A DNA stretch of 47,127 nt, from positions 69,712 through 116,838 of the IMG/VR virus record IMGVR_UViG_3300037502_002518. The stretch is one strand, 5' to 3'. Below, piece by piece: positions 346 through 36,578 of this stretch (its first letter is position 1; each line of letters starts with the position of its first letter). The translations under genes and the position numbers were made by a program. The DNA is from a virus (lineage: Duplodnaviria; Heunggongvirae; Uroviricota; Caudoviricetes). Under the pieces are notes generated by a model, which had not been told where the DNA came from, did not search any database, and saw nothing but the letters and a program-made list of their open reading frames with translations.

Positions 346-549
346 TCACCCTTTCTTGATATTCTTTCTATAATACTCATTCACATAAGGAGTTAGTGGG
401 TTGATATATTTTTTTGTTAAATTAAACCCATTGCAATACATTACCCATCCCTTGTATGAGCTGATACTACACCACTCAGAATAAGACATTTCTTTTCCAG
501 ATTTACACTTGTTTAAAATATTTCTCATTATCTTTATTAGATTAACAAA
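346..549 (-). pseudogene. C-terminal (thumb) remnant of a DGR reverse transcriptase
   Basis: (FVNLIKI)MRNILNKCKSGKEMSYSEWCSISSYKGWVMYCNGFNLTKKYINPLTPYVNEYY matches the recalled C-terminus of Bacillota DGR RTs (M.YSEWCSI.SYKGW...C...L..KYI.P...Y...YY). There is no YxDD core. The open frame begins directly after the stop codon of the CLec target gene. Confidence 0.8.
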
Positions 550-25826: not shown

Positions 25827-26567
25827 TTACCCCCTTTGTCCAATTTCAATTTTGAACTTGTTATTTAAGAAGTTAATCATTCTTAATGAATCTAGTTCCC
25901 CTCTACTAACTTTGTCTTTTGCCATAGAAACAATTGTTGATTGAACTCCTTTTGGAGCATTGTCAACAAAATCTTTGAATCCGTCAAAAGGAAGTTTGAA
26001 AGATTTTTCAATAGAATCTTTAGAAATGTTTTCATATTTTTTGTTTAGGCTGAAGTAATCTACAACTTCTTCGTCTAAAATTAAAATGAATGGCTCATCA
26101 AAGAATCCACGAGAACTACTTTTCATTGTGATAAGCTCTTGGAACTCAATATATTCAACATCTCCATATTGACCCCAAATTGTCTCTAATCCACTTTTCT
26201 TTGAACGATACACTAAACTACCAAAAGTAATATTCATAACTGGGACTTGCTCATATCTGTCAATTTTTGGCTTTGATGTCCTTTTTGGTGCTACTTCATT
26301 TTTTTGCTCTTCTTCTACCTGTTTACGAGCTTCTTCTTTTAATTCTTCTAGCATCTGTGCTTTCAAAGCTTCTAAATCGACTTGAGATGTTTTAACTTCC
26401 TTAACTTCATCAGATACGTCCTCCACTACATCTTCCTTTTGGTTCTTTGCTTTCATTTCTTTTAGTTGTGACTCTAATTTTTTCTTTCCTTTTTTCTTCA
26501 AGTTAGAGTACGTGTCTACCTCTTCAATCGACAATATTTCCTTGATAATTTCATCTACTGTTGCCAT
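25827..26567 (-). CDS. Conserved head-region protein (YonA-like)
   Basis: Directly after the capsid gene. W...GD.EYI...EL motif. Confidence 0.6.
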   Translation of the reverse strand: MATVDEIIKEILSIEEVDTYSNLKKKGKKKLESQLKEMKAKNQKEDVVEDVSDEVKEVKTSQVDLEALKAQMLEELKEEARKQVEEEQKNEVAPKRTSKPKIDRYEQVPVMNITFGSLVYRSKKSGLETIWGQYGDVEYIEFQELITMKSSSRGFFDEPFILILDEEVVDYFSLNKKYENISKDSIEKSFKLPFDGFKDFVDNAPKGVQSTIVSMAKDKVSRGELDSLRMINFLNNKFKIEIGQRG

Positions 26568-26645: not shown

Positions 26646-27623
26646 CTATGCGATTTTGTAGATACCATATTTAGATGAAGCTAATACAGCCACACCAGCT
26701 TTTTTGATGAACTTGTAATCACGTTGTAAGTCATTACGTTCTTCACTTGTACCTTCAATAATCATTGATTCGCCTTCAAGAACTAATTTAACAAACTTGT
26801 CTGGATTCTTTGGAACAACAAGCAAGAAGTTAGGGTCAATAGCAAATTCATCTGTACCTGCTTTATGAGCTTGGCGCACTTCCATCATGTCAGTACCTTG
26901 GAAGTTACCATAGTAACCGAATTGGTTCTTAGCATCTAAGCTGTTGTTAGATTCTGAATCATAAGTGATTTTACCAAGTGCCTGCTTAGTACCGATAATC
27001 ATTGCTTCCATGCCAGTACCAGCTTCTACGTGAGCAACTAAGTCTGCAAGAGCTGACTCTGTAAATGTACCAGATACAGCATAAGTTTGATTTAATGCAT
27101 TGTAAGAAGCGTAAACAGCTTGATAAATTTCATTTTTAATCTTAGCTTCGTAAGATTTAGATACGTTTTGAACTAGGTCGATAAAGTCTACACGACCTGC
27201 AAGTAAACGAGCAAGCTCTTCATAAACACCAACAGAGTAAATCTTAGTCTTAACAGTTAATTCACCACTGTCTAGACGGTCTCTACGAATATCTTGATTA
27301 CCATCAGAGATGACTGCAACGTCAAACAGTCTGTTTTCACGAACTGTAAACACTTGTGTGTCACCGTGGTCTAACACTACTGTATCTACTAACATATCAA
27401 ATTGGTCTTTAAGACCTTCTTCTACTAAAACATCTAATGCTTCCTCTAAGATAGCAAAGATTTGTGGGTTATCACGTAAAGACTTTGGAGATAACTTTGT
27501 ATTACCACCATTCGCCTCGATTAATTCTTTTCTTAATACTTCCATGCTGTCTGAACGAGAATAATTCGTTACTGAGCCTTGTTGTTTGTAAGCATCAATT
27601 GCTAATTTTGCAATTTCATTCAT
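26646..27623 (-). CDS. Major capsid protein
   Basis: 325 aa, strong highly-expressed codon bias, canonical position after decoration and protease genes. Confidence 0.9.
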   Translation of the reverse strand: MNEIAKLAIDAYKQQGSVTNYSRSDSMEVLRKELIEANGGNTKLSPKSLRDNPQIFAILEEALDVLVEEGLKDQFDMLVDTVVLDHGDTQVFTVRENRLFDVAVISDGNQDIRRDRLDSGELTVKTKIYSVGVYEELARLLAGRVDFIDLVQNVSKSYEAKIKNEIYQAVYASYNALNQTYAVSGTFTESALADLVAHVEAGTGMEAMIIGTKQALGKITYDSESNNSLDAKNQFGYYGNFQGTDMMEVRQAHKAGTDEFAIDPNFLLVVPKNPDKFVKLVLEGESMIIEGTSEERNDLQRDYKFIKKAGVAVLASSKYGIYKIA

Positions 27624-29774: not shown

Positions 29775-31256
29775 CTATTGCCTACTATCATTGTCTGCTC
29801 TGTCTCTTTGTAACTCTCCACCTTCTGTTAGTTCATCATCCTCAACTTCTGGTCTCCCTGCTTCAGAAGAAGCCGATTCAGTTTGAGTGTGAGAACTTTT
29901 TAAAGGTTTAAATTTATCTGTAATTCCCAATATGTCTTCTTCTAGGAAGTTCATAGAAACTCCAGCACTAGGAGACAGACCATAAGAAGCAAGCAATCTA
30001 AGTTTTACAGGAAGCCCATACTGAGCGCCTTTTAACAACATCTCTGTCTTTTCTTTTGAATTAAATACAGTAGTGTCTAAAATGACAGCCCTAAATACAT
30101 TTGTTCCCTTGATTGAATTTTTAATCTTAGAGTTGATAACCCTCTCTACTTGTCTCAGTAAGGCAAATACTTCAGCCTCATCAATTTTTATTGACTTTTC
30201 AAGAATACCATTTGTTGGTTTATCAATATTGAATAGGGCTTGGTTTGAACCCCCTGCGGAGTAAAAGCTTCTCTCTGCTTCCCTTACACCATCTTTATTT
30301 GAGTTGTCTTTTGAAAATTCAACTGTATCAATCTCAAATGGTGATGCAATAAGACCAATCTCTTCTGGAACAACATTTGCTGTTTTTCCATGGAAGGCAT
30401 TAACTGTTTTTAAATCAATTAAGAAGTCATTATTTTTATCTGACTCTTTTCTCATTGGAATTTTTTGAATTAAAAATTTATAGTTTTCAATGATTGAATT
30501 TACTTTCCCCAATGCTTTATATTCTTCAATGTCAAAAATATCTGCAAACAATCCAGCGAAAGGAGGTATATCATAATACAACTCTTCATCTATCTTTAAA
30601 CAAATAGACTTTTCTGGTTCAACTTCTTGAAAAGCATTCCCTGTTGTGTTATACTCTCTATACATAGACTGAAAAATCTCTGGGTATCTTTCTAAATCTT
30701 CTGGGGTACTATCAAAGTAACTCATGTCAAAACTAAAGGTAAAAACACCATCAGATATACCACTTATTTGACAATATTGAAATGGCAACTCAAATATAAA
30801 ATAGCTATTGTCTATTTCCATTTCATATCCGTAAAATGTCCCAACTTTCCAAGCTTGCTTTAGAACTTTTTGAAATTCATGCTTTATGTTCATGTTTTCA
30901 ACTTTTTTAATAGCCTTAATATAATTATTTCTTAATGTTTTCTCATTAATATTTTTTGAAGTATCAAGCTCTTTTAGTTCTACATAATGGTCTAATGTTG
31001 GCATTTTTGCTAAGAAATTTATAAATCTTCTGTAGTGGGTGCTATTGTTATAAATAAATGAGCTTAAGCTTTGAAGCTCCTTTGAATATCTGATAGGATT
31101 ATTAAGATATGTTTGAACGTTATCTCTATTGTAAGTTGAATACCTTGCTCTTGTTTGTGAATTCAAATCCTTTATGATAAAATCTGAAAGCTGAGCAAAA
31201 TTCCATTTTACCATATCCCTTTTAAAATCCTCTTCTTTTTTTAATGCTTTACTCAA
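29775..31256 (-). CDS. Portal protein (YonE-like)
   Basis: 493 aa, downstream of terminase. YC.ISG..DG.F.FSFDMSYF and LKGAQYGLP motifs. Confidence 0.85.
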   Translation of the reverse strand: MSKALKKEEDFKRDMVKWNFAQLSDFIIKDLNSQTRARYSTYNRDNVQTYLNNPIRYSKELQSLSSFIYNNSTHYRRFINFLAKMPTLDHYVELKELDTSKNINEKTLRNNYIKAIKKVENMNIKHEFQKVLKQAWKVGTFYGYEMEIDNSYFIFELPFQYCQISGISDGVFTFSFDMSYFDSTPEDLERYPEIFQSMYREYNTTGNAFQEVEPEKSICLKIDEELYYDIPPFAGLFADIFDIEEYKALGKVNSIIENYKFLIQKIPMRKESDKNNDFLIDLKTVNAFHGKTANVVPEEIGLIASPFEIDTVEFSKDNSNKDGVREAERSFYSAGGSNQALFNIDKPTNGILEKSIKIDEAEVFALLRQVERVINSKIKNSIKGTNVFRAVILDTTVFNSKEKTEMLLKGAQYGLPVKLRLLASYGLSPSAGVSMNFLEEDILGITDKFKPLKSSHTQTESASSEAGRPEVEDDELTEGGELQRDRADNDSRQ

Positions 31257-31270
31257 TAAAACTCACCTCC

Positions 31271-32953
31271 CTACCATTTTTTCTTTCTCTTATTGAAGTT
31301 TACACTCCTACCAACAAAATACTTTGATGGGTCTCCCATATCTTCATCTTTGATTAGTTTGTTTTTCTTTTCTTCAAGATAAATCCAAAATAAACCATAT
31401 TCTAAAGCTGAGAACCTATCTTTTTGTATTCCATTTGATATTCTTTTTACATCCGTATTTATACCAGACTGCTTATATTCAAGGTTCATGACCTCTTCTT
31501 GTAAGAAGTCTGTCATTGTAAATGGTCTTAAATGTTCAGCTATGTTTTCATCTTTTCCTTTGTAATTCATTTTTGCATTTGATTCTGATTCTAAAAACTT
31601 AACTTGGTTGTTACCAACCCATCTAATAAATAAGTTGTGAATGTCTGAAGCCTTTTGCTCTTTTGTTTGAGACTTAACAGCATAAATCATAGGTACACTT
31701 TCTGATGTTTTATATCTTTTGTACCTGTCGTCATTTATAACTTCATATGGTGGATTTGTATCCAAGTCTGGAGCAACTAGATAATCAACTAAACCTTGCC
31801 CTAAACCATTAGCATCCAAAACTAAAACTCTTGCTCTAAAGTCATTTACTTTTTCTTTTAGAAACATCGCCTGTTCTCTGAAGTGAGTACCTTCAAAAGT
31901 GTATATATTGACAACATGCTTGGAGAATGTTCCATCTCCTCTTTTTCTTATCTTTATAACCACTAAAGCACTTTGAGCGTTTGCACTGCCCTCAGACCTT
32001 GCAACGTCATAACTTAAAATGTACTCGAAATCCTTATCCTTAACTGCCTTGGTTTCTGCTGTTTTTAAAATTCTAGATTTTCTAAAAGATTCTAAATCAA
32101 CTAAAGAGCTTTCACTAGAACCCGACCAAACACTTCCGTACTCTCTTAAGAAAGAAACTGGATTAAAGTTTGGGGAGTCTTTTAGTTCGTTAATGTAAGA
32201 TATATCTAATAAGTCTACTGATGTAGGAAGTTCATATGATGAACCCAAAACAAAAGCTGACTTTCCTTCTACCATATCTTGAAAATATTCTTGTAAAAGG
32301 TTGTAAGCAAAAGACTGCTTCGTACCGGCTGTTGTGACTATAGTCACCTTTTTCGATAATTCATATGGGTCTTGACCCCCACAACTTGCCATTCTATTAT
32401 TCGCCATAATAGGTAATAATACCTTTGTATAGTTCTCTTCATCAAATCTTTCGTGAATAATCTCCTCTACTGAAAGCCCATGTCTTCTTAAACCACGAGA
32501 AGATTCTCTATTGGCTACAACATCGAGTATTGCGCCATTCCAAAAAACAAGTTTTGTATAATCTTTGTCAAATTTAAAAGACTTTACTTCATTTTTTAAC
32601 AAAGGAATAAAATCCCATATTGCTTCAATATTTTGTTGAGCAATATCACTTGCCATTTGTTTTTGTGGAGCTGTAATCATTATCTTTATGTTTGGATATA
32701 ATATACACTCTATCATTTTTGCTAATACTTCCAAGAACGACTTAGAAGCACCACGAGTTAAGGTAAAATATGTTCTTCTGTATCTGAACATTATTCTCAA
32801 AATAATCCTCTGATAGAAGAATAACTTAAATTTTGATTTTTCTGGAAGTAAAAAGTCAACAAAAAGGTCTGGATAAGACCTAAACAGAGATAAATACTCT
32901 GTCCAATCATCCATCATGGCATCTAGCATCTTACTTCTTTTTGGCTTATTCAT
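31271..32953 (-). CDS. terL: Terminase large subunit
   Basis: Walker A-like TRGASKS, RGLRRH..VEE (Walker B), nuclease YDVAR...D.NGLG...KDRFSAL. Confidence 0.93.
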   Translation of the reverse strand: MNKPKRSKMLDAMMDDWTEYLSLFRSYPDLFVDFLLPEKSKFKLFFYQRIILRIMFRYRRTYFTLTRGASKSFLEVLAKMIECILYPNIKIMITAPQKQMASDIAQQNIEAIWDFIPLLKNEVKSFKFDKDYTKLVFWNGAILDVVANRESSRGLRRHGLSVEEIIHERFDEENYTKVLLPIMANNRMASCGGQDPYELSKKVTIVTTAGTKQSFAYNLLQEYFQDMVEGKSAFVLGSSYELPTSVDLLDISYINELKDSPNFNPVSFLREYGSVWSGSSESSLVDLESFRKSRILKTAETKAVKDKDFEYILSYDVARSEGSANAQSALVVIKIRKRGDGTFSKHVVNIYTFEGTHFREQAMFLKEKVNDFRARVLVLDANGLGQGLVDYLVAPDLDTNPPYEVINDDRYKRYKTSESVPMIYAVKSQTKEQKASDIHNLFIRWVGNNQVKFLESESNAKMNYKGKDENIAEHLRPFTMTDFLQEEVMNLEYKQSGINTDVKRISNGIQKDRFSALEYGLFWIYLEEKKNKLIKDEDMGDPSKYFVGRSVNFNKRKKKW

Positions 32954-33997: not shown

Positions 33998-35236
33998 TTA
34001 GCGTTTAAATGATATGTTAATCGGAATAACTTCATTTTCTCCGATTACGATAATTCCTTGACTTGCAGGGCTATCAAATTTTAATGTTTTTCCAAACTCT
34101 GTAGCTCCCTGTAGACAACCAGATTGGTAAACCATTCTATTATGATTCTCTGTAGTCACCTTAAAGTTGTGGAAATGTCCCATGCAAACAATGTCAATTA
34201 ATTTATTTTCAAAGGAGATATGTTTTGATACAATGTTTCTATCATTTTGACTATCTCTATCTCCATGTACAACCTTAATTGTCTTCCCTTTAATATCAAA
34301 AATTGCTCTTTCTACATCATAGCCACTGTCATTTACAGTAATATTTGGATTTTTAACTCTAGAAATAATTGACTTGATAGATTCATGAATGATATATTCT
34401 GCTGAATCTTTTTCAACAGTTTCTTTCTTATTGCTCATTCTTCCATGATTCCCTCTTACTGAGCCTCTGTAAATAACTTTTCCAAATTCAGATAACGATT
34501 CAATCATATAGAACATAAGTTCTGTTGCTTTCACAATCTGTTCTGAAAAGTTAAACTCTGCATTGAAAGATTGTGTATTTTTATGCATATATAAGTTTTC
34601 TACCATATCTCCCATATGAACAACATTGAATACATTGATATTAAAGGTCTTTGCATAATGAACAATTCCCTCAATGTATTCATCAATTCTTGAATATGCA
34701 ATGTCTAAGCTAAAATGTTCATCCAAGTATCCAATGTGCCAATCTGACGGAAGAACTAGCATCTCTCTATCTCTATTAATATCTTTAACTTCTTTAACAG
34801 ATGACTCTCTAATTTCTAAACCTTTAAAACTATCGACAATATCTTGAATTAATAAAGATTTATCAACAATACTTCTTTTAATTTTTCCAAGGTTTTGTGT
34901 TTGAAGTTGAACTTCACGTTTAGTATAATAAAGCTCTCCTACAGCCTCTTTAATTGACTCAAGCTTTTTTGAAGAGACAATCTCTGCATATTTCTCTTTT
35001 TCTGGAAGCTCTCCAATATTTTTTTGATGAGATTTAACAAGAACCCTATAATTCTCATTTTTGTCTGAATTGTCATAGCCTTCTTTTTCCATTAGCTTCT
35101 TGTGCTTTGCCCAAGAGCATCTATAAGAAGGACTAGATTTTTGCAATTCAATTTTAATTTGAACTGCAACATCTAGGTGGTCTTTTGATACTTCGACTTT
35201 TTCTCCTTTTGAATTTACATAGCTACGAAAAGTCAT
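33998..35236 (-). CDS. Calcineurin-like metallophosphoesterase (YonJ-like)
   Basis: SDWHIG, GDMVEN, GNHGR, HGD and GHFH metallophosphoesterase motifs. Confidence 0.85.
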   Translation of the reverse strand: MTFRSYVNSKGEKVEVSKDHLDVAVQIKIELQKSSPSYRCSWAKHKKLMEKEGYDNSDKNENYRVLVKSHQKNIGELPEKEKYAEIVSSKKLESIKEAVGELYYTKREVQLQTQNLGKIKRSIVDKSLLIQDIVDSFKGLEIRESSVKEVKDINRDREMLVLPSDWHIGYLDEHFSLDIAYSRIDEYIEGIVHYAKTFNINVFNVVHMGDMVENLYMHKNTQSFNAEFNFSEQIVKATELMFYMIESLSEFGKVIYRGSVRGNHGRMSNKKETVEKDSAEYIIHESIKSIISRVKNPNITVNDSGYDVERAIFDIKGKTIKVVHGDRDSQNDRNIVSKHISFENKLIDIVCMGHFHNFKVTTENHNRMVYQSGCLQGATEFGKTLKFDSPASQGIIVIGENEVIPINISFKR

Positions 35237-35430
35237 TACTGAATACCTTCGTCTAATTTAATTTTATGGGAAAAAGCCATTTTAATTTCTTGACCATCAA
35301 AATGTTTTAAAAGCTCCTCTAAGTCATGAACAATTTCTTCTTCCTCAGTTACTTCTGAAATTGTCATATTTTGAAAATCTAAAACACCTGTTAAGTTATA
35401 ACCTAAAGTTTTTGTTGATTTAATTGCCAT
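35236..35430 (-). CDS. YonK-like small protein
   Basis: 64 aa. G.LD..NM.I.E......DL.E.L..FDG..I pattern. Synteny upstream of the YonJ-like gene. Confidence 0.7.
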   Translation of the reverse strand: MAIKSTKTLGYNLTGVLDFQNMTISEVTEEEEIVHDLEELLKHFDGQEIKMAFSHKIKLDEGIQ

Positions 35431-35470
35431 TTTTCATATCTCCCTTTTCTCATTGTTATTTTAATAATAA

Positions 35471-35494
35471 AAAATCCTACAGGTGTAGGATTTT
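35471..35494 (-). terminator. Intrinsic terminator after the tRNA cluster
   Basis: AAAATCCTAC-aggt-GTAGGATTTT, with T-rich tail on the minus strand. Confidence 0.7.
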
Positions 35495-35526
35495 GATTAA
35501 ATATATTTATAATGTATGTTTATTAG

Positions 35527-35836
35527 CGCCCCATAGATGACTCGAACATCTGACCCACGCTTTAGCTTACCAACTACAGTTTTCACTGCCATTTTAGTGT
35601 TTGTGGTCTGGACTATAACTTCATCATTTCAGATGCGACACGTTTAGTCTCTACGGAATCTCAATCAATAGTCTTACCTGCATAAGCCATTCAAACTATC
35701 TCGTTTCCTCGGTATTTCCATCAGCATTACCTGTTAAGGTTTCACCGATACGGTGTCGTGCATTTCATAAGTTGCTTTTCCCTATGAAAGCTCCTATAAT
35801 TGAAGAGCGTTGCTCTATCCACTGAGCTAATGGGGC
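35527..35836 (-). tRNA. trnR: tRNA-Arg(UCU) interrupted by a group I intron
   Basis: Exons join to GCCCCAT TA GCTC AGTGGATA GAGC A ACGCT CT T|CT AA AGCGT GGGTC AGATG TTCGAGT CATCT ATGGGGC G, a perfect cloverleaf. CCA is not encoded. Confidence 0.92.
35566..35802 (-). ncRNA. Group I self-splicing intron (237 nt, no ORF)
   Basis: P CGTATCGGTGAAAC, Q AATACCGAGGA, R GTAGAGACTAAACG, S AAGTTATAGTCC. P3 CGACAC/GTGTCG, P7 GACTA/TAGTC, P9 GCAGT-GAAA-ACTGT. Terminal G, and U before the 5' splice site. Confidence 0.93.
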
Positions 35837-36149
35837 TTGATAAATTAATGCTATCTCGACTCGAAAAGCTACTTATGCCCCTTATCAAAGTTAAGTCAAG
35901 TATAGCCCTCTGCCTACTTAACTAGTATTTCAACAGAAGTTTTTTGTGGCATCTTATTTCAGCGACTCATCGCTTGATAAACTTGTGGTCAACAGTCTAT
36001 ATTCTTAACATAGCTATATTAGTTTGTTTAATTAAGAATAAGACCTACACAAGAGCGTGTGACCTATCTTGGTACGCTACTTATTGTAAGCGTGATAGGT
36101 ACTATTTGAGCCAGACCTCTTTTTAGTCGCATATCTGGTAGCGACAAAT

Positions 36150-36220
36150 CAAGAGCAATAGGATTTGAACCTATATGGCTGGTTTTTGAGACCAGAATCT
36201 TACCATTAGATGATGCCCTT
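36150..36220 (-). tRNA. tRNA with Trp-like body but CAA anticodon
   Basis: AAGGGCA TC ATCT AATGGTA AGAT T CTGGT CT-CAA-AA ACCAG CCAT ATAGG TTCAAAT CCTAT TGCTCTT G. Short variable loop, G73. Confidence 0.8.
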
Positions 36221-36224
36221 ATAT

Positions 36225-36295
36225 TGGACTCGGAGAATTCTGACATCTCACCTTTTCCCTTTTTGGGGACTGCTCTTCCTTTAAGCTACGAGTCC
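36225..36295 (-). tRNA. tRNA-like element/pseudo-tRNA (6-nt anticodon loop, atypical T-loop)
   Basis: Acceptor GGACTCG/CGAGTCC (7 bp), D-arm GCTT/GAGC, TCCC-CAAAAA-GGGA, T-arm GAGA-TGTCAGAAT-TCTC, A73. Confidence 0.6.
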
Positions 36296-36385
36296 AGAAT
36301 AGCCATGAGCCACATGGCTTAATCTAACCGATTAGTCGGTCGGTTTACTTATTATCCGATGAGGAATAACGCATTTTAACGACTG

Positions 36386-36470
36386 AGTGTAGTGCAATGG
36401 GTCGAACATTGCAACTCAACATCTATAGGCTAGCCATGATGTTGCGCTTTTCCAATTAAGCTAACCACAC
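36386..36470 (-). tRNA. tRNA-like element with extended anticodon arm and no canonical loop
   Basis: Acceptor GTGTGGT/ACTACAC, D-arm GCTT-AATTGGAA-AAGC, CAACATC-ATGGCTAGCCTATA-GATGTTG, T-arm GCAATG-TTCGACC-CATTGC. Confidence 0.65.
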
Positions 36471-36578
36471 ATGATATTATTAAAACCTCGCCCACTTTAA
36501 TCATATTATATGCCCTTGCAAGAGCCTTTGGAAAGTGGGGGAGGATTTTAAAATAAGTTATAAGTTAATTCATTTTTG

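What the first reader, a model, noticed from the sequence alone, without database searches (positions are those of the whole stretch)
35527..36549. Cluster-level pattern: all four tRNA-shaped genes have altered anticodon loops while their bodies stay intact
Seen: in transcription order, a hairpin-capped arm, a 6-nt loop, a Trp-to-CAA swap and an intron-split loop, with acceptor, D and T arms well paired in all four and structured spacers between them. Established: many anti-phage effectors (PrrC, RloC, PARIS/AriB, some retron and toxin nucleases) cut tRNAs, often in the anticodon loop, and phage tRNAs can counter them. Inference: a possible undescribed RNA array of tRNA-shaped decoys, nuclease-resistant mimics or processing punctuation marks, co-transcribed with phoH and HU at the start of the late unit. 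Plain pseudogenisation is the null model.
Basis: inference. Interest (0 to 1): 0.7.

Follow-up and report, generated by a model that had tools for sequence, protein, structure and literature searches.

The report
Mixed phage tRNA cassette, not decoy array
The four odd tRNA-shaped genes are real, but they are a mixed bag inside one mobile phage RNA cassette: a working arginine tRNA split by a self-splicing intron, a conserved tRNA look-alike that cannot decode, and two tRNA genes that appear to be eroding, so the shared "altered anticodon" look has several causes, not one.

Summary
On the minus strand, 36470-35527, lie four tRNA-shaped genes with paired acceptor, D and T arms and unusual anticodon regions, separated by conserved structured spacers.

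They do not form one designed array:
- #4 is tRNA-Arg(UCU) split after U34 by a true group I intron. Helices covary, and 13 of 14 related introns in other viral contigs also sit in tRNA genes.
- #1 has an 11-bp capped arm and cannot decode. It is 97.6% identical in the one sister cassette found, against 80% for the adjacent spacer, and both changes keep pairing.
- #2, from a tRNA(CAU) lineage, and #3, with a tRNA-Trp body, diverge as fast as the spacer. In the sister cassette #2 has a normal CAU loop, and #3 carries UCA and is broken by a GIY-YIG gene stub.

The cassette has its own promoter-like site and terminator. It is about 95% identical between phages whose flanking PhoH and HU proteins are about 20% identical, so it is mobile.

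The closest known parallels are the T4 and T5 tRNA regions, which hold tRNAs, stable RNAs of unknown function and homing endonucleases. A decoy role for #1-#3 is neither excluded nor supported. This scan has noted similar non-decoding tRNA-shaped RNAs in other phages.

The parts
36505..36539 (-). Promoter-like site (TTTCCA, 18 nt, TATAAT; 36534-36505) nested in an inverted repeat (arms 36539-36532 and 36498-36491), upstream of #1
   Evidence: 10 of 12 consensus matches; sequence read. The arms are kept in the sister cassette L058 while the loop differs. L058 also has a consensus TTGACA-17-TATAAT just upstream.
36386..36470 (-). #1: non-decoding tRNA-shaped RNA. 7-bp acceptor stem, D arm with GG, 6-bp T stem with loop TTCGACC. 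The anticodon arm is replaced by an 11-bp helix with one bulged A and a 5-nt cap inside the palindrome GGCTAGCC. Discriminator U, no encoded CCA.
   Evidence: It is 97.6% identical in L058, and both differences keep pairing (C-G to U.G; G.U to G-C).
36296..36385 (-). Spacer 1-2: three conserved hairpins
   Evidence: 17 of 18 substitutions against L058 fall in unpaired columns, and the one in a stem keeps the pair (binomial p=2.4e-5; the structure was predicted from the same two sequences).
36225..36295 (-). #2: former tRNA(CAU) built on a phage-specific scaffold. The body is intact. The anticodon arm has a G27.A43 mismatch and a 6-nt loop CAAAAA, and the encoded CCA is lost. Probably a dead or repurposed tRNA.
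36150..36220 (-). #3: canonical cloverleaf with a tRNA-Trp-type body (A1-U72, G73, 4-nt variable loop) but anticodon CAA
   Evidence: 59.5 bits; nearest matches are annotated tRNA-Trp; L058 copy has loop ATTCAAA, anticodon TCA, and is disrupted in the T arm.
35837..36148 (-). Large conserved spacer. Block A (36148-36040, 94.5% identical to L058), a variable middle (36039-35994, 52%) and block B (35993-35837, 96.8%). Structured, with no conserved ORF and no Rfam match. Candidate stable RNAs.
   Evidence: (z -2.55).
35803..35836 (-). #4 exon 1 of tRNA-Arg(UCU), ending at U34
   Evidence: (100% identical in L058).
35566..35802 (-). Group I intron, 237 nt, no ORF. It has P1 with a U34.G10 wobble, P2-P9, an A-rich J4/5, a bulged A in P7, a GAAA loop on P9 and a terminal G237.
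35527..35565 (-). #4 exon 2 of tRNA-Arg(UCU). Together the two exons give the loop CUUCUAA.
35471..35494 (-). Intrinsic terminator-like hairpin with a T run, closing the cassette
   Evidence: Similarity to L058 ends right after #4.

Best explanation
The region is a self-contained, horizontally mobile phage RNA cassette running from promoter to terminator, about 36534-35471 on the minus strand. It is of the same general kind as the tRNA regions of phages T4 and T5. Its four tRNA-shaped genes look alike for different reasons.

1. #4 is a working tRNA-Arg(UCU). It is split after the wobble base by a group I intron that most likely splices itself out. AGA is this phage's main arginine codon.
2. 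#1 is a conserved tRNA mimic with a long closed helix where the anticodon loop should be. It is presumably cut out by RNase P and RNase Z like a tRNA and then acts as a stable, non-decoding RNA. Its partner is unknown.
3. #2 and #3 are former decoding tRNAs, of CAU type and Trp type. In this phage they have lost a usable anticodon loop, or the cognate anticodon, through a few changes to A. They are eroding or only weakly constrained.
4. The conserved spacers probably give further stable RNAs.

Shown: the anatomy, the conservation pattern, intron covariation and cassette mobility.
Inferred: splicing, processing, non-charging of #3, and any role for #1.
For: Anatomy.

Sister cassette L058. Identity by segment: #1 97.6%, #4 exons 100% and 97.4%, intron 95.8%, blocks A and B 94.5% and 96.8%. 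In contrast, spacer 1-2 is 80%, #2 85.9% and #3 83%, and the flanks are about 45-50%. Pooled differences are 20 of 121 for #2+#3 against 3 of 158 for #1 plus the #4 exons (p=1e-5). #2 and #3 do not differ from the spacer (p=0.54 and 1).

In L058, #2 has the loop CTCATAA plus an encoded CCA and scores 50.9 bits as tRNA. #3 has anticodon TCA and is cut in its T arm by an insert carrying a GIY-YIG stub.

The scaffold of #2 is used by 13 other phage tRNAs, 12 of which show a clear normal 7-nt loop.

Intron: compensatory changes in P2, P3, P4, P7, P8 and P9 against two introns in LR756508.1; an invariant U.G pair at the 5' splice site; G at the 3' end. Its core is shared with the DnaB intron of a Kolpuevirus. 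Its P4-P5 is 92.7% identical to another site in this genome. 13 of 14 further family members lie inside tRNA genes.

AGA makes up 64% of Arg codons.

Mobility: own promoter-like site and terminator. PhoH and HU are about 20% identical between the two phages.

Precedent: the T5 and T4 tRNA regions hold tRNAs, 'tRNA-like stable RNA' or small stable RNAs of unknown function, and HNH or GIY-YIG endonucleases (PMC2330249).
Against: - Only one sister cassette was found, so rates rest on two sequences.
- The faster-evolving stretch (spacer 1-2, #2, #3) is contiguous. It could be a recombination patch of different age, not a sign of relaxed constraint.
- #3 in this window has a flawless cloverleaf, and most #3 differences look derived in L058. 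It may therefore be a functional tRNA with a new anticodon.
- The anticodon loops of #2 and #3 changed more than the rest of those genes (6 of 14 against 14 of 107, p=0.012). Plain neutral decay does not predict this.
- Rfam's group I model (RF00028) does not hit the intron.
Confidence: 0.55

Rival explanations
1. Counter-defence array. #1, #2 and #3 are kept as tRNA-shaped decoys or inhibitors. They would bind host tRNA-targeting nucleases, or tRNA-sensing defence proteins, through the tRNA body while offering no cleavable anticodon loop. tRNA-Arg and the phage RNA repair enzyme would restore translation.
For: - The bodies of all three keep acceptor, D and T arms.
- #1 is strongly conserved.
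- Loop positions of #2 and #3 changed more than the rest of those genes (p=0.012).
- All three loop substitutions relative to the inferred ancestral loops (CUCAUAA for #2, CUCCAAA for #3) are changes to A.
- The phage encodes a 747-aa kinase-phosphatase-Rnl1 ligase.
- Phage tRNAs are known to counter tRNA-cutting defences (PMC10264068, PMC11464382, PMC11555353, PMC13096335).
Against: - The known cases use tRNAs that still decode. #1 and #2 cannot.
- The sister cassette has a normal CAU loop in #2 and a destroyed #3, so the altered loops are not conserved features.
- #2 and #3 evolve at the spacer rate.
- Changes to A are also what mutation bias predicts in a genome with 33% G+C.
- No defence partner has been identified.
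Confidence: 0.15
2. Processing scaffold. The tRNA-shaped elements are kept mainly as RNase P and RNase Z cleavage signals. Their job would be to release the conserved spacer RNAs (three hairpins, blocks A and B) from one transcript, so decoding ability is dispensable for #1-#3.
For: - The spacers are as conserved as, or more conserved than, #2 and #3, and substitutions avoid their stems.
- There is one promoter-like site and one terminator.
- In T4 and T5, stable RNAs sit directly next to tRNAs.
Against: - The exact 14-nt cap of #1 is identical in both cassettes, which a mere cleavage signal would not need.
- No function is known for the spacer RNAs.
- L058 tolerates loss of the #3 T arm, which would abolish processing at that site.
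Confidence: 0.15
3. Plain pseudogenisation of everything except #4. #1, #2 and #3 are all dead tRNA genes, and their apparent conservation only reflects recent transfer of the cassette.
For: - Only one canonical tRNA is called in the whole genome.
- #2 has lost U33, a loop base and its CCA.
- #3 has a non-cognate anticodon and the phage has no matching synthetase.
Against: - Divergence inside the cassette is strongly uneven: #1 at 2.4% against 20% in the adjoining spacer (p=0.0002).
- Both #1 changes keep base pairs.
- The inserted arm of #1 is a well-formed 11-bp helix, not random damage.
Confidence: 0.08
4. Homing-endonuclease footprint. The anticodon regions of these genes are DNA targets of intron-associated or free-standing homing endonucleases. 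The intron in #4 and the mutated loops of #2 and #3 would then be two outcomes, invasion and escape mutation, of the same DNA-level attack.
For: - A group I intron sits exactly in the anticodon of #4.
- A GIY-YIG stub is inserted in #3 of L058.
- The genome has at least two further RF00028 hits above Rfam's cut-off and a third just below it.
- The cassette is mobile between unrelated phages, as with SegB-driven inheritance of the T4 tRNA region (PMC2330249).
- Endonucleases specific for tRNA anticodon regions are cited in PMC3984707.
Against: - The #4 intron has no ORF and the window has no endonuclease gene near the cassette.
- No cleavage site is known.
- The idea does not explain #1.
Confidence: 0.07

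Closest known systems
Phage T5 tRNA region (NC_005859, 30.3-33.3 kb): tRNAs interleaved with RNA1 and RNA2 ('tRNA-like stable RNA with unknown functions'), RNAI, RNAIII, RNAIV and RNA2H, and the HNH endonuclease hegC
   Same: A tRNA operon mixing decoding tRNAs, tRNA-shaped RNAs with a long non-decoding central arm, other stable RNAs and a homing endonuclease. #1 has the same design idea: acceptor and T arm kept, anticodon arm replaced.
   Different: No sequence similarity was found. #1 is much smaller (85 nt against 125-144 nt) and has a simple 11-bp capped helix. T5 carries many working tRNAs, whereas here only one or two can decode.
Phage T4 tRNA cluster with segB (GIY-YIG) and the small stable RNAs rnaC and rnaD (species 1 and 2)
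   Same: tRNA-Arg sits next to stable RNAs of unknown function, with a GIY-YIG homing endonuclease inside the cluster. SegB drives preferential inheritance of the whole tRNA region (PMC2330249), a likely model for how this cassette moved between unrelated phages.
   Different: In this window no endonuclease gene remains; only the sister cassette has a stub. The T4 tRNAs are intact and have no introns.
Bacterial tRNA group I introns, e.g. cyanobacterial tRNA-Leu(UAA) (position recalled from memory: between U34 and A35)
   Same: A group I intron in the anticodon loop directly after U34, with a U.G wobble at the 5' splice site and a terminal G.
   Different: The host here is a phage tRNA-Arg(UCU). 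A 2014 review states that all phage group I introns then known were in protein-coding genes (PMC3984707). RF00028 does not detect this subfamily.
Phage tRNAs with anticodon-loop changes that escape tRNA-targeting defences (PMC10264068; T5 tRNAs against PARIS and retrons, PMC11464382, PMC11555353)
   Same: Phage-encoded tRNA genes whose anticodon loops differ from their relatives, in a phage that also carries RNA repair.
   Different: Those tRNAs keep a 7-nt loop and the cognate anticodon and still decode. #1 and #2 cannot, and #3 has a non-cognate anticodon for its body.

Membership tests
Canonical decoding tRNA (Rfam RF00005) | Cloverleaf scoring above the Rfam gathering score (29 bits) | tested here: met
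   Met for #3 only, at 59.5 bits. #1 and #2 give no hit at E<=10. The 5' half of #4 scores 11.6 bits because of the intron.
Canonical decoding tRNA (Rfam RF00005) | 7-nt anticodon loop with U33, closed by a 5-bp stem | tested here: not met
   #1 has an 11-bp helix with a 5-nt cap. #2 has a 6-nt loop CAAAAA without U33 and a G.A mismatch. The feature is met for #3, and for #4 after intron removal.
Canonical decoding tRNA (Rfam RF00005) | Anticodon matching the identity set of the body | tested here: inconclusive
   #3 has a Trp-type body (nearest matches are tRNA-Trp; A1-U72 and G73 read from the sequence) but anticodon CAA. Charging could not be tested. The phage has no class Ib synthetase.
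Group I intron | U.G wobble at the 5' splice site and G as the last intron base | tested here: met
   U34.G10 and G237 are invariant in the four aligned pre-tRNAs.
Group I intron | Conserved core helices P3-P9, supported by covariation | tested here: met
   Two-sided changes that keep the pair occur in P2, P3 (5 of 6 pairs), P4, P7, P8 and P9. The core is shared with a Kolpuevirus DnaB intron.
Group I intron | Match to Rfam RF00028 | tested here: not met
   No hit at E<=10 on this stretch. The same model hits three other sites in the genome, so the subfamily lies outside the model's reach.
Group I intron | Self-splicing with guanosine in vitro | not testable with these tools
   Needs a bench assay.
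Phage tRNA-like stable RNAs (T5 RNA1/RNA2; T4 rnaC/rnaD) | Encoded inside a phage tRNA operon, tRNA-like ends, no anticodon loop | tested here: met
   #1. T5 and T4 annotation and folds.
Phage tRNA-like stable RNAs (T5 RNA1/RNA2; T4 rnaC/rnaD) | Accumulates as a discrete stable RNA during infection | not testable with these tools
   No expression data.
Phage tRNA-like stable RNAs (T5 RNA1/RNA2; T4 rnaC/rnaD) | Sequence homology to the T4 or T5 RNAs | tested here: not met
   blastn of #1 and of the whole cluster against 50,697 phage records gave no such match. Any likeness is architectural only.
Defence-evading phage tRNAs (anticodon-loop variants) | Still decodes its codon while resisting cleavage | tested here: not met
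   #1 and #2 lack a usable anticodon loop. #3 is uncertain.
YrlA / bacterial Y RNA (RF02553) | Rfam match; ends at the base of the Ro-binding stem (permuted tRNA mimic) | tested here: not met
   No Rfam hit at E<=10. The ends of #1 lie at the acceptor stem, as in a tRNA.

The most novel reading that the evidence does not exclude
The cassette is a mobile anti-defence RNA module. #1, and possibly #2 and #3, would be non-decoding tRNA mimics kept to bind and neutralise host tRNA-targeting nucleases or tRNA-sensing immune proteins. They would work together with an intron-protected tRNA-Arg and the phage's one-protein RNA repair enzyme, and the whole module would spread between unrelated phages by homing-endonuclease-driven gene conversion.
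Probability: 0.13. Interest if true: 0.8.

Novelty: new member of a known kind. Interest (0 to 1): 0.5.

Why it matters
A striking "all four anticodons altered" pattern can arise from three unrelated processes: intron invasion, a tRNA turned into a mimic, and gene erosion. Single-genome patterns of this kind therefore need a sister sequence before a function is proposed.

Three things here merit follow-up:
- A small, strongly conserved tRNA mimic (#1) adds to the still unexplained class of phage tRNA-like stable RNAs known since T4 and T5.
- A whole RNA cassette is shared at about 95% identity by phages whose neighbouring proteins are about 20% identical. That makes it a clean example of a mobile non-coding module.
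- The tRNA-Arg intron belongs to a widespread family of group I introns that sit after U34 of phage tRNA genes. A 2014 review said no such location was then known for phages.

Standard tRNA finders miss three of the four genes here, as well as a whole scaffold family that includes amber-suppressor tRNAs. This affects codon-usage and recoding analyses of phage genomes.

Tried and rejected
- PhoH relatives: 24 viral contigs with PhoH at 41-49% identity do not carry the cassette.
- Exact-pattern scans for the T arm of #1, for block B and for the intron core found only L058 in viral contigs.
- The genome-contig scan gave four chance matches in non-tRNA sequence.
- The metagenome scan returned ordinary tRNAs that merely share the D arm and T loop.
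- Archaeal-type splicing of #1 was rejected. The arm is a continuous helix with one bulged A and has no bulge-helix-bulge motif. ARAGORN's '11-nt intron, anticodon ATA' call is arbitrary, because it places the intron differently in the two cassettes.
- #1 as an attP fragment was rejected, because both halves of the cloverleaf are present.
- A protein-coding spacer was rejected, because no ORF is shared with L058.
- An alternative genetic code to explain CAA or UCA is unlikely, because long ORFs are intact under table 11.
- Phage-encoded TrpRS/TyrRS-class synthetase and CCA-adding enzyme were not found.
- I dropped a test of whether #2 keeps 'family-invariant' body positions. It is circular, since the family was retrieved with a pattern built from those positions.
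- Polarised window-lineage changes in #2 (about 4 in the 17-nt anticodon arm against about 5 in 54 nt elsewhere) are too few to be significant.
- PF09511 RNA ligase was not found in the 51%-complete L058 record. This says little.
Full report
WHAT IS THERE

The window is the right-hand 47 kb of a 116,838-bp viral record with direct terminal repeats and 33% G+C. On the minus strand, between a phoH-like gene (37250-36579) and a yonK-like gene (35430-35236), lies about 1.06 kb of non-coding DNA.

Default ARAGORN and Rfam call one tRNA there: 36220-36150, anticodon CAA, 59.5 bits.
- #1, 36470-36386.
- #2, 36295-36225.
- #3, 36220-36150.
- #4, 35836-35527.

A promoter-like site (TTTCCA-18-TATAAT, 36534-36505) sits inside an inverted repeat upstream of #1. 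A terminator-like hairpin (35494-35471) follows #4.

THE SISTER CASSETTE

Pattern scans of viral contigs found one relative, L058 (an 83-kb IMG/VR contig). It carries the same elements in the same order, and similarity starts at the promoter hairpin and stops right after #4.

The neighbouring PhoH and HU proteins of the two phages are only about 20% identical, and PhoH has a different domain make-up, being a PIN-PhoH fusion in L058. The RNA region is therefore a module that has moved between otherwise unrelated phages.

Identity to L058 within the module is very uneven:
- #1: 97.6%.
- #4 exons: 100% and 97.4%.
- Intron: 95.8%.
- Spacer blocks A and B: 94.5% and 96.8%.
- Spacer 1-2: 80%.
- #2: 85.9%.
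- The retained 5' part of #3: 83%.

#1, the #4 exons, the intron and blocks A+B are each significantly more conserved than spacer 1-2 (p between 1e-5 and 2e-4). #2 and #3 do not differ from that spacer.

ELEMENT #4

ARAGORN restores a canonical tRNA-Arg(UCU) by removing 237 nt after U34. The insert is a group I intron, on the following evidence:
- Its P7-P3-P8 core matches the intron that splits the DnaB helicase gene of a Kolpuevirus and holds a GIY endonuclease ORF.
- Its P4-P5 region is 92.7% identical to a site at 30,001-30,041 of this same genome, about 1 kb upstream of a sub-threshold RF00028 hit at 30,999-31,309.
- It aligns with two unannotated intron-containing tRNA genes, Arg-UCU and Lys-UUU, of the 484-kb phage record LR756508.1. 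That alignment shows pair-keeping double changes in P2, P3, P4, P7, P8 and P9, an invariant C32-U33-U34/G-A-G P1 with the U.G wobble at the cut, and a terminal G.

A degenerate core pattern found 14 more viral contigs. In 13 of them the core lies inside an intron-containing tRNA call. ARAGORN names these Arg-UCU, Lys-UUU, Glu-UUC, UUA, UGA and, in three loci, Ser-GCU, and in most the insert is placed just after a wobble U.

A 2014 review states that all phage group I introns then known were in protein genes (PMC3984707). My literature searches found no later report.

AGA supplies 64% of this phage's Arg codons. #4 is therefore best read as a working tRNA, and its 'altered loop' is only apparent. 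Rfam RF00028 misses it.

ELEMENT #1

The fold is a cloverleaf whose anticodon arm is an 11-bp helix (7+4 bp with one bulged A) capped by five bases inside the palindrome GGCTAGCC. The T stem has 6 bp, giving a 13-bp acceptor-T stack. The discriminator is U and no CCA is encoded.

It cannot decode. It differs from the L058 copy at two positions, and both keep a pair (C-G to U.G in the arm; G.U to G-C in the acceptor stem). The 14-nt cap is identical in both.

No other homologue was found in phage records, viral contigs, metagenomes or 185,579 species genomes.

The architecture recalls T5 RNA1 and RNA2, annotated 'tRNA-like stable RNA with unknown functions'. Their folds show tRNA-like ends, a T arm and a long central arm. 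T4 likewise has rnaC and rnaD next to tRNA-Arg.

Another example turned up here by chance: a Leu-like class II tRNA with a hairpin-extended anticodon arm in two contigs that also hold intron-split tRNAs. Earlier notes of this scan report similar anticodon-less tRNA-shaped RNAs in other phages. I used those notes as a lead to T5 and T4 and checked the two annotations myself.

ELEMENT #2

Its body is 96% identical, outside the anticodon arm, to an unannotated gene in Exiguobacterium phage vB_EalM-132. It also resembles one in Bacillus phage Goe19. Both have the loop CTCATAA (anticodon CAT) and score 47.8 and 45.6 bits as tRNA.

The scaffold consists of a D arm TAGCTCAAAGGAAGAGC and a T arm with a U.U pair and loop GTCRGRA. 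It recurs in 11 viral contigs with anticodons CTA (seven), GTC, TGG and CAT. All but one of these parse with a clear 7-nt loop.

The L058 copy is a normal tRNA(CAU) with an encoded CCA (50.9 bits). It has a compensatory pair change in the acceptor stem.

The window copy has lost one loop base and U33, and has two loop substitutions to A. It also has a G27.A43 mismatch and has lost its CCA, and Rfam no longer sees it. It has lost decoding, while the arms outside the anticodon arm are intact.

ELEMENT #3

It is a flawless cloverleaf whose nearest database matches are all annotated tRNA-Trp. It has A1-U72, G73 and a 4-nt variable loop, and its loop is CTCAAAA, one change away from the Trp loop CTCCAAA.

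The L058 copy has loop ATTCAAA (anticodon TCA). It has lost its T arm to an insert of about 430 nt that carries a 70-aa GIY-YIG stub.

From what is known of TrpRS, which uses C35 as a strong determinant, and of LeuRS, which uses A73 (both recalled, not tested), a CAA tRNA with G73 is likely to be poorly charged. TTG is a common codon here, at 13 per thousand, so efficient charging with Trp would be harmful.

SPACERS

Spacer 1-2 holds three hairpins. Of its 18 substitutions against L058, 17 lie in unpaired columns and the other keeps its pair (p=2.4e-5, with the caveat that the structure was predicted from the same two sequences).

The 311-nt stretch between #3 and #4 has two highly conserved blocks around a variable middle. 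It folds better than shuffles (z -2.55), has no shared ORF, and matches nothing in Rfam or phage records. These are candidate stable RNAs, like the T4 and T5 species.

READING

The shared appearance has at least three causes: intron invasion (#4), a conserved mimic (#1) and erosion or weak constraint (#2, #3). I put this at 0.55.

The decoy-array idea is not excluded, for three reasons:
- The loops of #2 and #3 changed more than the rest of those genes (p=0.012).
- All three loop substitutions relative to the inferred ancestral loops are to A.

But the altered loops are not conserved in the sister cassette, the faster stretch is contiguous and could be a recombination patch, and A-ward changes fit the base composition. 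Known defence-evading phage tRNAs still decode (PMC10264068, PMC11464382, PMC11555353).

The cassette's mobility and the GIY-YIG stub fit the T4 SegB model of endonuclease-driven inheritance of a tRNA region (PMC2330249; see also PMC13096335).

LIMITS

The comparison rests on two sequences only. Splicing, processing and charging are all inferred.

Noticed in passing
L026:3001-3073 (MH884511.1), L034:1501-1572 (OM728299.1), and L055-L065: A phage tRNA scaffold with a non-standard T arm (U.U in place of G53-C61; G at positions 54 and 58; loop GTCRGRA). Default ARAGORN misses it, and it is unannotated in two GenBank phage records. Rfam still scores it at 45-51 bits. Seven of 11 viral-contig members have anticodon CTA, so amber-suppressor tRNAs may be under-counted in phages.
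   Followed up: partly
L078 (LR756508.1 11418-13101), L088-L100: A family of group I introns inserted after U34 of phage tRNA genes. ARAGORN calls the hosts Arg-UCU, Lys-UUU, Glu-UUC, UUA, UGA, and Ser-GCU in three loci. 13 of 14 pattern hits in viral contigs lie inside tRNA genes, and several introns are 600-650 nt and may hold an ORF. RF00028 does not detect the window's copy.
   Followed up: partly
L058:40-85 (minus strand), just after #4 of the sister cassette: A mini tRNA-like element: a 7-bp acceptor-like stem and a canonical T arm (loop TTCAAAT) joined by about 9 nt, with no D or anticodon arm. It is absent from the window.
   Followed up: no
L058:941-1153 (minus strand): A 70-aa GIY-YIG stub (Pfam PF01541, E=3e-8) inside an insert of about 430 nt that replaces the T arm of #3. 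The insert is bracketed by CCATATA and TATATGG, which can pair.
   Followed up: partly
L087 and L097, about 1.4 kb upstream of the intron core: A Leu-like class II tRNA whose anticodon arm is extended by a 7-bp helix and an 18-nt cap. This is another non-decoding tRNA look-alike in a cluster that also has an intron-split tRNA.
   Followed up: no
L075 (SESB01033448.1), 198-292 and 381-475, minus strand: Two tRNA genes with 20-22-nt hairpin inserts in the anticodon loop, on a 1.6-kb metagenome contig. They may be archaeal-type introns. Unrelated to the window.
   Followed up: no
window 35837-36148: Two highly conserved non-coding blocks (94.5% and 96.8% identical to L058) around a variable middle. 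No ORF, no Rfam match, no match in phage records. Candidate stable RNAs.
   Followed up: partly
G000 26218-26512, 26967-27204, 30999-31309 (outside the window): Three RF00028 (group I intron) hits on the plus strand, at 52.5, 84 and 48 bits; the cut-off is 50. A stretch at 30001-30041 is 92.7% identical to P4-P5 of the tRNA-Arg intron.
   Followed up: no
G000 34232-36475 (L083:233-2476): A 747-aa protein with AAA_33 kinase, metallophosphatase and T4 Rnl1-type RNA ligase domains (Pfam E-values 3e-19, 2e-18 and 7e-36). It is a one-protein RNA repair enzyme, already noted by this scan.
   Followed up: partly
window 36225-36295 and 36150-36220: All three base substitutions in the anticodon loops of #2 and #3, relative to the inferred ancestral loops, are changes to A. 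This gives an A5 run in both. It may be mutation bias or convergence.
   Followed up: no
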